Shown: positions 39,001 to 42,000, counted from the first letter of the stretch. The stretch is DNA of 64,000 bases from Candidatus Woesearchaeota archaeon (GCA_018302105.1 JAGWAD010000023.1:10405-74404), one strand, 5' to 3'. Program-made: the numbers.

Positions 39001-42000
39001 AATTATTTAAATGATACAAAAGTAAAATATGTTGTTTTATCAGGATTTAATCAAATGCCAGAAGGATACACAAAATTCATACAGGAAAATCAAAAAATTT
39101 TCAATCCAGTTGCAGTTTATTATATAGATAAAGAACAAAAACAGCCAATAGTCATAATATTTGAAATTATAAGAAATTAATTCTTTTTACAGCAATATAA
39201 AAATTGATAACTAAACTTTAATGGAATAAATAAGCCTAAAACTTTTAATAAAGATCTTCTAATGACAAATAAAGGTCTATAATCAAAAAATATTCTTTGT
39301 TTAAAATTATAATCATCAGCTAAAGTTTTACTAATAGATAAACCATTCTTTCTGAATAAATTAACCCATTCATTATTAGTCCTTAAAGTTTCTTGTATTT
39401 CACTTTGATGTGTTCCTTCATGATTAGTAAATTTAAATAAAATAAAATCCTTATTTGGAACCATAATAAATAATCTAGAATCTTTCTTGCTAACTCTTTT
39501 AATTTCACTAATCGCTTTCTCTTGATCTAAAAAGTGTTCTAGAGAACCTAAACAAAAAACAACATCAAAATAATTATCTTTAAACGGAAGTTTTTCAGCA
39601 GCGCCAACTTTTAATGATGCATTTGGTACATTCAATTTTGCAAGCTCAATTGCTTCTTTTGATATGTCTATGCCTGAAATTTCAAATCCCTTACTAGAAG
39701 CAGCTTTTAATAAAAATCCTCTTCCACAGGCAATATCTAATAATTTCAATCCTTTTCCATTATCTAAATTAAGGGAATTTAAAACATATTCATAAGCCTC
39801 AAAAGGTCTTACACCTTCAGCAACTTTAAATGCACTTGTAACTCCCACCTTATCCTTCTTATAACATTGATTGTAATATTGTTCCACATCTTTAAAAGTA
39901 GTCATTTAAAATCTGCTCCTGTTTGTTATTAGTTTACTAAATGGAACAAATTTTGAAACCTTCTTAAACTTTTCCTGTATAAAATCATCCCTATAACCGC
40001 AACTTGCACATAAACCATTTCTGGATTTAGCTAATGCCTGTCTAAAAGATTGATATTTTGGACTATTCCATATTTCTTTAAATGGTGTCTGAAAAACATT
40101 TCCAAAACTAATTTGAGAATCATAAAAATAACAGCAAGGCAATACATCTCCTTCCCAGGTTATATAAGCACTATACCATGGCAGATAACAATGAGCATCA
40201 TTTAAATTTTTTTGTTCATCTTTTTCAATTTTATCAATATAATAACCAACACTGTCAATATTAACATTAATTTTTACTTTATCCTTTAATTCTAAAGCTT
40301 CATTATAATACTTTCTTAATTCAGAAATTTGAACATTATCTAATTTATTTTTCCTGTATTCCTTAATATCATATTCAGTTACAAAAGCACTATTTATCTG
40401 ATCAACACCAATTTCATCAGCTAATTTAATTATCAATGGCAATTCATGTATATTTCCAACCTGGCTAACAAAAGCCATATGTATTTGTAATTTTCCTTTA
40501 ACCTCATTTCTAATCTTAACCAAATTTCTTAGATTATTAATCACAGTTTCAAATTTTGCAGGAATTCTTATTTTTTCATAAGTTTCTTTTGTTGCACCAT
40601 CAACACTTATCGATATCAAGTCTAATCCACTCTCAACAATTTTTCTGGCTCTTTCTTCAGTAGTCAAAGTTGCATTTGAGTCAATTTTAGTAAAAGCACC
40701 TTTTGCTTTGCTATATTTAATTATTTCAAAAATATCACTATTCAATATCATTTCACTATATCCTGTTAAATTTACATAAGCAGGCTTTATAGTATCAAAA
40801 ATTTGTTTATATTTCTCTAAATTTAACATTCCTTTTTTCCTCTTCATAACATTCAAGGCACACATAGTACACCTTAAATTGCAAATATTCCCATTTTCAA
40901 TCTGTAATCTATAAGGTAAAGAATAAGCTTTTTTTCCAGAAACAAAACTACTATAACCACTACCTATTAATCTTGTAGCTGATTTCATTCCTGAACTTCC
41001 TTTAAATACAACTTCTGCTATACCCATAAAAATAACAAAATTAATTGATTTATAATAGTTTTTATTGGATTTTTAAAATATGTTATCAAATAAACAGGTA
41101 ACAAAATATTTATATTTTAGAATTTTAAGATATTAATTTATGGAAAATACTAATCAAGGCACATTAGAAAAAAGAACTAGATTTTTTAATTCTTTAAATG
41201 GTATGAAACTTCCTATTTTAATAACAGCCATAACTTTATTCAGCGGAATAGCACTAATAAACTATGCTTTACCGAAAGATTGGTCTACAAGGTTTGCTGC
41301 TAAACAAGCTGGAAAAGAGTATGAAATATATGTGAAAGAACTAATTGACAGGGATATTTCATGTTTTTTTCAAAATGCAGATTATAATGAAAATGGACAG
41401 GTATCTAAAGAAGAATACAAGAGATACTTAGAAGAACAAAGAATAAAATAACTACAATAATTTAATTTTTTCTAATAAAAACTTCTTATCAACAATTTTA
41501 AATTTCCCTTCATTAATATTTAACTCTTCCAAATTCAAATTTCCTATTTTTATTCTTTTTAGTTTTAATACTTTATTCCCAATACTTTCAAAAATCCTTC
41601 TGATTTCTCTTTTTTTCCCTTCGCTAATTGTAATATATAATTGATTTTTATTTATACATTCCATTTTTGATGGTTTTGTCTTATATTTGTTAATAATCCC
41701 ATTTTCTTCTAAATCAATAATAATCCCTTTTTCAATATTAAGTTTATCATCTTTAAATAATTCATTTTCTAATTCAACAAAATAAGTCTTTGAAATTTCA
41801 AATTTTGGATGTGCTATTTGATGTATTAAATCGCCATCATTTGTTAATATTATCAACCCAGAACTACTTTCATCTAGCCTGCCAATTGTTGATAATGATT
41901 TTTCTAACTTATTATTCAATTTTATTAAAGAAAATAAACTCTTTTTATTCAATCTCAAATCATTATTAGTTAATCTTGAAGATAAATACCCTTCTGGCTT

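What the first reader, a model, noticed from the sequence alone, without database searches (positions are those of the whole stretch)
39177..41451. Radical-SAM/SPASM enzyme + methyltransferase pair with a divergent EF-hand membrane peptide
SPASM/twitch radical-SAM enzymes usually mature peptides (RiPPs), generate formylglycine in sulfatases (anSME) or modify cofactors, and none of those substrates is obvious here. The enzyme has a ~45-residue N-terminal extension before CxxxCxxC. It is overlap-coupled to a class I MTase and divergently faces a 103-aa TM + EF-hand protein. An anSME-like role would imply a sulfatase or sulfated glycan. A RiPP-like role would need a precursor peptide.
Basis: partly seen in the sequence, partly recalled or inferred. 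Interest (0 to 1): 0.5.

Follow-up and report, generated by a model that had tools for sequence, protein, structure and literature searches.

The report
Radical SAM enzyme in glycan operon
A radical-SAM enzyme with one extra iron-sulfur cluster sits inside the surface-sugar-chain assembly operon of a tiny DPANN archaeon and most likely modifies a sugar. The methyltransferase and the small EF-hand gene beside it are neighbours found only in this lineage, not conserved partners.

Summary
The three ORFs exist as described, but the proposed three-gene unit does not hold up. The 373-aa enzyme (39906-41027, minus strand) has only four invariant C-terminal Cys (C280-X12-G293-X4-C298 ... C340-X2-C343). 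They align one-to-one with the four Cys in BtrN's auxiliary-cluster domain, so it is a one-cluster "twitch" enzyme, not a seven-Cys SPASM. It matches no named family.

Its close relatives (37-86% identity) come almost entirely from DPANN archaea. They share one gene order: (AglB) - priming GT - flippase - GT2 - GT2 - B12-rSAM - this enzyme - GT2 - convergent GT-C (PMT_2). The EF-hand ORF is an orphan, absent from all 23 related loci. It lies in a four-gene block that splits an operon which is contiguous in the closest relatives.

The methyltransferase is missing in the 86% and 69% orthologs and has no relative above 48% identity. The window holds no sulfatase. No RRE domain or conserved small ORF was found.

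Best reading: an uncharacterised sugar-tailoring radical enzyme of a dolichol-linked glycan pathway. Its nearest solved relatives, BtrN and BlsE, act on a cyclitol and a sugar nucleoside. The exact chemistry is unknown. Interest is moderate.

The parts
39906..41027 (-). Twitch-domain radical SAM enzyme, 373 aa. It has CxxxCxMC at C49/C53/C56 and auxiliary-cluster Cys at C280, C298, C340 and C343. This is the core element.
39177..39905 (-). Class I SAM methyltransferase, 242 aa. Its start codon directly follows the rSAM stop codon. It is a lineage-specific accessory, probably a glycan O-methyltransferase.
   Evidence: Methyltransf_11 at 1.7e-23. TAA followed by ATG. Absent in L008 and L009. Next-best homolog is 42-48% identical. 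The two homologs examined sit in glycan clusters without a rSAM.
37669..39180 (+). GT-C fold glycosyltransferase (PMT_2 / ArnT-like), convergent with the rSAM operon. It is the most conserved neighbour.
   Evidence: PMT_2 at 1.5e-18. A convergent PMT_2 lies downstream in 19 of 23 related loci. Three of the other four are contig ends just past the rSAM gene; L003 has none in the 8 kb held.
36611..37525 (+). GT2 glycosyltransferase. Its closest solved relative is Dol-P-Man synthase, so it is a candidate polyprenyl-phosphate sugar synthase feeding the GT-C.
   Evidence: Glyco_tranf_2_3 at 5.5e-21. PDB 5mlz Dol-P-Man synthase at 7.3e-6. Homologs of 37-69% identity lie downstream in 8 loci.
33745..36002 (+). 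Two GT4-family glycosyltransferases (33745-34890 and 34887-36002), syntenic in the closest relatives.
   Evidence: Glycos_transf_1 and Glyco_transf_4. 53-73% orthologs at the same position in L008 and L009.
43550..48443 (-). Upstream half of the operon: priming GT (47439-48443), flippase (46177-47466), GT2 (45453-46211), GT4 (44362-45456) and GT2 (43550-44365).
   Evidence: Pfam. The order priming GT, flippase, GT2 ... rSAM recurs in most of 24 loci. GT2_43550 lies 40 bp and 296 bp upstream of the rSAM in L008 and L009.
41140..43510 (.). NOT part of the system. This is a window-specific four-gene block that splits the operon: EF-hand orphan 41140-41451 (+), S4/pseudouridine synthase 41452-42222 (-), unknown 142-aa ORF 42242-42670 (-), and TrmB-family regulator 42764-43510 (+).
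   Evidence: 0 of 23 related loci carry any of the four. The EF-hand ORF is an orphan. Pfam.
57433..60234 (-). STT3/AglB oligosaccharyltransferase, the likely end user of the lipid-linked glycan.
   Evidence: STT3 at 3.6e-14. STT3 lies directly upstream of the priming GT in L001, L015, L016 and L026.

Best explanation
The 373-aa protein belongs to an uncharacterised family of twitch-domain radical SAM enzymes, found mostly in DPANN archaea. It works as a tailoring enzyme in a dolichol-linked surface or N-glycan assembly pathway.

Proposed mechanism (inferred, not shown). The CxxxCxMC cluster cleaves SAM to give a 5'-deoxyadenosyl radical. That radical abstracts a hydrogen from a sugar carbon. 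The substrate is a nucleotide sugar, a polyprenyl-phosphate sugar or a lipid-linked oligosaccharide. The single Cys4-ligated auxiliary [4Fe-4S] cluster then takes the electron from the substrate radical. The product would be a keto-sugar (BtrN-type two-electron oxidation), or possibly a decarboxylated or rearranged sugar (BlsE/DesII-type). The modified sugar is then carried into the glycan by the adjacent GT2 and the convergent GT-C transferase.

In this genome alone, a class I methyltransferase has been inserted directly after the gene. It probably adds a methyl group to the same glycan. The EF-hand ORF is an unrelated orphan.
For: Shown:
1. Only C280, C298, C340 and C343 are invariant outside the SAM-cluster motif. 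They align with BtrN residues 169, 187, 232 and 235. BtrN's auxiliary cluster is Cys4-ligated (PMC10337720, PMC6231123).
3. M55 is invariant, giving CxxxCxMC, the unusual motif described for BlsE (PMC3715490).
4. Synteny across 24 loci: (STT3) - priming GT - flippase - GT2 - GT2 - B12-rSAM - this enzyme - GT2 - convergent PMT_2.
5. Relatives at 31-34% identity also sit among sugar-nucleotide, GT or glycoside-hydrolase genes.
6. The window carries AglB, a cis-prenyltransferase, UDP-Glc dehydrogenase and many GTs.

Inferred: the substrate class, and the role of the auxiliary cluster as electron acceptor (by analogy with BtrN; PMC9012708).
Against: - No substrate is identified, and context alone cannot distinguish a sugar from a lipid carrier or a protein substrate.
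- Published sequence-similarity networks show that fold and function are hard to predict in this subfamily (PMC6231123).
- Similarity to BtrN is confined to the C-terminal domain.
- The 2013 BlsE paper characterises only the CxxxCxMC [4Fe-4S] cluster and reports no auxiliary cluster (PMC3715490), so a BlsE analogy does not explain the conserved auxiliary Cys.
- The N-terminal extension is not markedly amphipathic (muH 0.48, similar to internal helices), so there is no direct sign of membrane association.
Confidence: 0.6

Rival explanations
1. Obligate two-step rSAM plus methyltransferase module. The radical enzyme creates a hydroxyl, enol or keto function that the translationally coupled MTase methylates, and the two form a dedicated functional pair.
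For: The stop and start codons abut, TAA then ATG. Class I MTases lie directly next to the rSAM gene in 5 of the 23 related loci (L001, L010, L013, L015, L024) and one gene away in L027.
Against: The MTase is absent beside the two closest orthologs, L008 at 86% and L009/L005 at 69%. MTases in other loci are only 24-35% identical and sit at varying positions. The window MTase has no relative above 48% identity, and the two relatives examined lie in glycan clusters without a rSAM. At least five class I MTases occur in this window, so adjacency is expected fairly often by chance.
Confidence: 0.15
2. A lipid-modifying radical SAM enzyme. It alters the polyprenol/dolichol carrier or a membrane lipid rather than a sugar.
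Against: The GDGT-MAS match is weaker than the BtrN and BlsE matches. The gene is interleaved with GT2 genes, not isoprenoid genes, in all loci. Relatives at 31-34% identity sit next to sugar-nucleotide enzymes and glycoside hydrolases.
Confidence: 0.1
3. A RiPP maturase acting on a small precursor peptide, possibly the 103-aa EF-hand protein.
For: SPASM/twitch enzymes are common RiPP maturases. SkfB, SuiB and CteB are strong fold matches. A small ORF lies divergently upstream.
Against: There is no RRE domain: Pfam finds only two domains, and the N-terminal extension is two helices with no beta-sheet (RRE architecture per PMC6231123). Every recurring small ORF within 2 kb in 24 loci is a shadow frame inside a large gene. 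The EF-hand ORF is absent from 23 of 23 loci and is an orphan.
Confidence: 0.04
4. An anSME-like protein maturase that converts Cys or Ser to formylglycine in a sulfatase, or modifies another protein such as the adjacent GT-C.
Against: The second auxiliary cluster that defines SPASM/anSME is missing. No sulfatase domain is found in any ORF of 100 aa or more in the window. anSME matches only at 1.5e-4 with the family profile, and no NCBIfam model reaches its cut-off.
Confidence: 0.04
5. A cofactor or metalloenzyme maturase, since the best below-threshold NCBIfam matches are the tungsten-cofactor oxidoreductase maturase, the Geobacter-type metalloenzyme maturase, and AhbD/NirJ.
For: TIGR04317 and TIGR04311 score about 121 bits, and AhbD 92 bits.
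Against: All scores are far below the cut-offs of 380-500 bits. No oxidoreductase, heme or tungsten genes were detected beside the rSAM gene in any of the 24 loci: Pfam-annotated genes in L001/L003/L005 are all glycan-pathway types, and the panel maps show only glycan genes around it in the others.
Confidence: 0.04

Closest known systems
BtrN (2-deoxy-scyllo-inosamine dehydrogenase, butirosin pathway; PDB 4M7T)
   Same: Both have a radical SAM core followed by a twitch domain. All four Cys in BtrN's auxiliary-cluster domain align with the four invariant Cys here. BtrN is the best PDB sequence match, at 2e-11 for the single sequence and 1.5e-16 for the family profile. It acts on a carbohydrate-like substrate.
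BlsE (cytosylglucuronate decarboxylase, blasticidin S pathway; PDB 7VOB)
   Different: Identity is 16%. The 2013 paper characterises only the SAM-binding cluster, whereas this family conserves four auxiliary-cluster Cys. BlsE belongs to a natural-product pathway.
DesII (TDP-4-amino-4,6-dideoxyglucose deaminase/dehydrogenase; PDB 8HZY)
   Different: It is much larger (about 490 aa), about 17% identical, and lies in a macrolide sugar pathway.
anSME and other seven-Cys SPASM enzymes (PqqE, SuiB, CteB)
   Same: Same superfamily branch. The first half of the SPASM motif, CX12GX4C, is present. Pfam's SPASM model matches at 1.7e-20.
   Different: The CX2CX5CX3C block is reduced to CX2C and the final Cys is absent, so only one auxiliary cluster is possible (definition in PMC6231123). 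There is no RRE and no peptide or sulfatase substrate.
DprE1/DprE2 and the ArnA-ArnC-ArnT route (analogy from textbook knowledge, not tested)
   Same: These are pathways in which a sugar is oxidised or decarboxylated before, or while, it is linked to polyprenyl phosphate. A GT2-type synthase and a GT-C transferase then use it. Here the same GT2 plus GT-C pairing flanks the rSAM gene.
   Different: Those pathways use flavin or NAD enzymes, not radical SAM chemistry. No evidence here shows that the substrate is lipid-linked.

Membership tests
Radical SAM superfamily | CxxxCxxC motif binding the SAM-cleaving [4Fe-4S] cluster within a partial TIM barrel | tested here: met
SPASM-domain rSAM (two auxiliary clusters) | Seven-Cys motif CX9-15GX4C - gap - CX2CX5CX3C - gap - C (PMC6231123) | tested here: not met
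   C280-X12-G293-X4-C298 is present, but only C340-X2-C343 follows. There are no further Cys in the protein.
Twitch-domain rSAM (one auxiliary cluster) | A truncated SPASM domain supplying ligands for a single auxiliary cluster, with a beta-hairpin followed by a helix | tested here: met
   The four invariant Cys align with BtrN residues 169, 187, 232 and 235. The model has a hairpin at E286-289/E294-296 followed by helices 316-334. The NCBIfam twitch model N_Twi_rSAM hits residues 277-348, below its cut-off.
Twitch-domain rSAM (one auxiliary cluster) | Actual binding of a second Fe-S cluster | not testable with these tools
   This needs iron/sulfide quantification and EPR or Moessbauer spectroscopy on reconstituted protein. 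Model coordinates were not exposed, so Cys-Cys distances could not be measured.
anSME (anaerobic sulfatase maturase) | Two auxiliary clusters plus a sulfatase substrate with the C/S-x-P-x-R motif | tested here: not met
   There is one auxiliary site only. No sulfatase domain occurs in any ORF of 100 aa or more in the window. anSME matches at 1.5e-4 with the profile.
RiPP maturase (sactisynthase, streptide-type and similar) | An N-terminal RRE/PqqD-like peptide-binding domain and a nearby precursor peptide gene | tested here: not met
   There is no RRE or PqqD hit. The N-terminal extension is two helices, 3-10 and 14-29. No conserved free-standing small ORF occurs in 24 loci.
MoaA or other housekeeping rSAM | A score above the curated NCBIfam cut-off | tested here: not met
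   MoaA models score 40-52 bits against cut-offs of 231-325. No model of any family reaches its cut-off.
BtrN orthologs (DOIA dehydrogenase) | Full-length similarity and an aminoglycoside biosynthetic context | tested here: not met
   Only residues 261-354 align significantly. The context is a glycan operon.
EF-hand protein (the 103-aa ORF) | A Pfam EF-hand score above the gathering threshold, and paired EF-hands | tested here: not met
   EF-hand_5 scores 20.6 against 25.9, and EF-hand_1 17.8 against 25.4. There is a single loop only and no family members elsewhere.
Archaeal Agl-type N-glycosylation cluster (context) | AglB/STT3, a priming GT (Glycos_transf_4), a flippase and GTs in one locus | tested here: met
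   Window: STT3 at 57433-60234, priming GT at 47439-48443, flippase at 46177-47466, and many GT2/GT4 genes. STT3 lies directly upstream of the priming GT in L001, L015, L016 and L026. Whether the glycan is actually N-linked is not testable here.

The most novel reading that the evidence does not exclude
DPANN archaea may use radical SAM chemistry to tailor sugars of dolichol-linked glycans. This twitch enzyme usually occurs together with B12-dependent rSAM enzymes. It would oxidise, epimerise or decarboxylate a polyprenyl-phosphate sugar made by the neighbouring DPMS-like GT2. That would create the donor for the convergent GT-C transferase. It would be an anaerobic radical counterpart of the DprE1/DprE2 or ArnA routes, and the first radical SAM step described in archaeal protein glycosylation.
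Probability: 0.15. Interest if true: 0.65.

Novelty: new member of a known kind. Interest (0 to 1): 0.35.

Why it matters
Characterised archaeal N-glycosylation pathways include no radical SAM step; a 2024 review of the field never uses the word "radical". DPANN archaea depend on cell-cell contact with hosts, so their surface glycans are biologically important and chemically unknown. A conserved operon that combines a twitch rSAM with B12-rSAM enzymes predicts unusual sugars, such as keto, deoxy or C-methyl sugars. It also offers a defined, small enzyme family for studying how auxiliary clusters act on carbohydrate radicals. For annotation, the result shows that a Pfam "SPASM" hit next to a small ORF should not be read as a RiPP or anSME system without checking the Cys count and the synteny.

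Tried and rejected
- Sulfatase search: a Pfam scan of all ORFs of 100 aa or more in the window found none.
- Precursor-peptide search: all-vs-all comparison of 1165 small ORFs (20-120 aa) within 2 kb of the rSAM gene in 24 loci gave only shadow frames of large genes.
- EF-hand ORF as partner: a word-indexed search of 5.8 billion proteins and an exhaustive HMMER search of 1.84 billion representatives found only its own 99% copy, plus short hits in long repetitive proteins.
- MTase as conserved partner: rejected by synteny and by the context of its own homologs.
- Named-family assignment: no NCBIfam model passes its cut-off.
- Membrane-association signal: hydrophobic-moment analysis of the N-terminal extension and the MTase C-terminal tail was unremarkable, so this is inconclusive.
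- Measuring Cys geometry in the AF2 model: coordinates are not exposed.
- AFDB50 fold search: the library was unavailable.
- Literature searches linking rSAM/SPASM/twitch with polysaccharide or N-glycosylation clusters gave nothing relevant.
- rSAM with EF-hand complex prediction: no multimer tool was available.
- Bacteroidota relatives at about 33% identity have a different conserved context (rSAM-MarR-GHL10). They were not used to infer function beyond the carbohydrate association.

Full report
**Observation**

The three ORFs are real. The rSAM gene is at 39906-41027 (-) and encodes 373 aa. The MTase is at 39177-39905 (-) and encodes 242 aa. A 103-aa ORF at 41140-41451 (+) is divergent across a 112-bp spacer. 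The Pfam matches are strong: Radical_SAM 6.9e-17, SPASM 1.7e-20, Methyltransf_11 1.7e-23.

The rSAM stop codon and the MTase start codon abut (TAA then ATG) rather than overlap. The EF-hand matches are below Pfam's gathering scores (20.6 against 25.9), and there is a single loop. The window is about 26% GC, with no tRNA or Rfam hits. The rSAM protein is identical to a "radical SAM protein" of a Candidatus Woesearchaeota archaeon.

**What the enzyme is**

No NCBIfam model reaches its curated cut-off. The best matches are a tungsten-cofactor maturase and a Geobacter-type metalloenzyme maturase at about 121 bits against cut-offs of 380-400. PqqE, AlbA and MoaA score far lower.

In an alignment of 22 family members (40-86% identity), the invariant Cys are C49, C53 and C56 plus only C280, C298, C340 and C343. 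C299 becomes Asp in four members. The protein has no other Cys.

The published SPASM definition is the seven-Cys motif CX9-15GX4C - gap - CX2CX5CX3C - gap - C, which binds two clusters. The twitch domain is the truncated one-cluster form (PMC6231123, PMC9012708). Here C280-X12-G293-X4-C298 is intact, but only a CX2C follows. This is therefore a twitch enzyme.

BtrN is the best solved relative by sequence, at 2e-11 for the single sequence and 1.5e-16 for the family profile. In that alignment the four invariant Cys fall on BtrN residues 169, 187, 232 and 235. BtrN's auxiliary cluster is Cys4-ligated (PMC10337720).

The AF2 model is confident, with pLDDT 88.7 and pTM 0.88.
- Foldseek gives the same set.
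- With the family profile, BlsE is the second-best PDB hit.

The family's invariant M55 gives CxxxCxMC, the unusual motif reported for BlsE (PMC3715490). The roughly 48-residue N-terminal extension is conserved in the family. It folds as two helices, which is too small and of the wrong type for an RRE.

**Context**

The gene sits in a glycan-assembly island. The window encodes:
- five PMT_2-type GT-C enzymes,
- many GT2 and GT4 transferases,
- a Glycos_transf_4 priming transferase and a flippase,
- a carbamoyltransferase and a polysaccharide deacetylase,
- several MTases,
- UDP-Glc dehydrogenase and a cis-prenyltransferase,
- STT3/AglB.

No sulfatase is present.

**Conservation**

Close relatives (37-86% identity) are almost all from Woese-, Nano- and Pacearchaeota. 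Gene-order maps of 24 loci show a recurring operon:

(STT3) - priming GT - flippase - GT2 - GT2 - B12-rSAM - [this enzyme] - GT2 - (B12-rSAM) - convergent PMT_2

A convergent PMT_2 lies downstream in 19 of 23 related loci. Three of the other four are contig ends just past the rSAM gene, and L003 has none in the 8 kb held.

The EF-hand ORF, the S4/pseudouridine synthase, the unknown 142-aa ORF and the TrmB regulator are absent from all 23 related loci. In the two closest relatives, the GT2 at window position 43550 lies 40 bp and 296 bp upstream of the rSAM gene. The 41140-43510 block therefore interrupts an otherwise contiguous operon.

The EF-hand ORF's only full-length match in two very large protein sets is a 99%-identical copy of itself.

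The MTase is absent beside the 86% and 69% orthologs, where the rSAM stop meets the convergent PMT_2. Its own nearest relatives are 42-48% identical, and the two examined lie in glycan clusters that lack a rSAM. MTases occur in about 8 of 24 loci, at varying positions and at only 24-35% identity.

No free-standing small ORF recurs near the rSAM gene.

More distant relatives at 31-34% identity also sit with sugar-nucleotide enzymes, GTs or glycoside hydrolases.

**Mechanism**

Shown: a radical SAM core with a single, fully Cys-ligated auxiliary site, and obligate residence in a lipid-linked glycan operon.

Inferred: the 5'-deoxyadenosyl radical abstracts a sugar C-H. The auxiliary cluster then accepts the electron, as proposed for BtrN (PMC9012708), to give a keto-sugar. 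A BlsE/DesII-type decarboxylation or elimination is the alternative.

No additional invariant Cys is available as an H-atom donor. From my own knowledge, the HygY and NeoN epimerases use such a thiol, so this argues mildly against that type of epimerase. A Tyr donor cannot be excluded.

The adjacent GT2 is most similar to Dol-P-Man synthase among solved structures (7.3e-6). Together with the convergent GT-C, this suggests, but does not prove, a polyprenyl-phosphate-sugar route.

The MTase most likely O-methylates the glycan in this lineage only.

**Rivals**

The RiPP, anSME and cofactor-maturase readings each fail a defining test (see the membership table). A lipid-carrier substrate remains possible at about 0.1. 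An obligate rSAM-MTase pair specific to this genome remains possible at about 0.15.

**Novelty and verdict**

The finding as framed (rSAM/SPASM plus MTase plus EF-hand peptide) is not a system. What is there is a new, uncharacterised family within a known enzyme class (twitch rSAM). It is embedded in DPANN glycan operons, a setting in which no radical SAM step has been characterised; a 2024 review of archaeal N-glycosylation does not mention radical enzymes.

Interest is moderate (0.35). It would be higher if radical tailoring of dolichol-linked sugars were demonstrated.

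Noticed in passing
window 41140-43510: A four-gene block (EF-hand orphan, S4-domain RsuA/RluB-type pseudouridine synthase, unknown 142-aa ORF, TrmB-family regulator) interrupts a glycan operon that is contiguous in the closest relatives L008 and L009. It looks like a lineage-specific insertion. A TrmB sugar regulator landing inside a glycan operon may be functionally meaningful.
   Followed up: partly
L010-L027, L001, L003 (for example L003 5037-6518, 10105-11493, 15458-16912); window 11554-12918: B12-binding radical SAM genes flank the twitch rSAM in about 17 of 24 DPANN loci, sometimes in 2-4 copies. 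This suggests extensive radical (C-methyl?) tailoring of the glycan. The window's operon lacks one, but a B12-rSAM lies at 11554-12918 (-) near a GFO/ADH fusion and UDP-Glc dehydrogenase.
   Followed up: partly
window 35968-36438 (+): A SET-domain protein (lysine-methyltransferase fold, 156 aa) is embedded between GT4 and GT2 genes of the glycan cluster. It is absent from all 23 related loci.
   Followed up: partly
L001 13388-14422 and 17023-17098; L010; L013: Related loci carry additional rSAM/SPASM paralogs, 22-30% identical to the window enzyme. In L001 one is followed by a 51-aa ORF. These could be a different, possibly peptide-linked, subsystem.
   Followed up: no
L006 8001-11219; L007 8001-11123: In Bacteroidota, a 343-aa relative at about 33% identity is conserved in a three-gene arrangement: rSAM, then a MarR regulator, then a GHL10 (glycoside-hydrolase-like) protein. 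This is a separate uncharacterised module.
   Followed up: partly
window 21476-23242, 23282-24940, 31226-32935, 37669-39180, 48483-50012, 55944-57431, 57433-60234: There is an unusually high density of GT-C-type membrane glycosyltransferases in one 40-kb stretch: five PMT_2/DUF6798 proteins, one PTPS_related membrane protein and STT3/AglB.
   Followed up: no
window 28343-30025 (-) and 25815-26726 (+): An O-carbamoyltransferase (NodU/CmcH type) and an LPG_synthase_TM-family membrane protein lie inside the glycan island. They point to a carbamoylated sugar and possibly lipid or glycan aminoacylation or flipping.
   Followed up: no
L012 (labelled Actinomycetota MAG) and L016 (labelled Paceibacterota MAG): Two close family members (about 44% identity) are on contigs assigned to bacterial bins. 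L016 has the archaeal-style STT3 - priming GT - GT2 - B12-rSAM synteny. This may be mis-binning or horizontal transfer.
   Followed up: no
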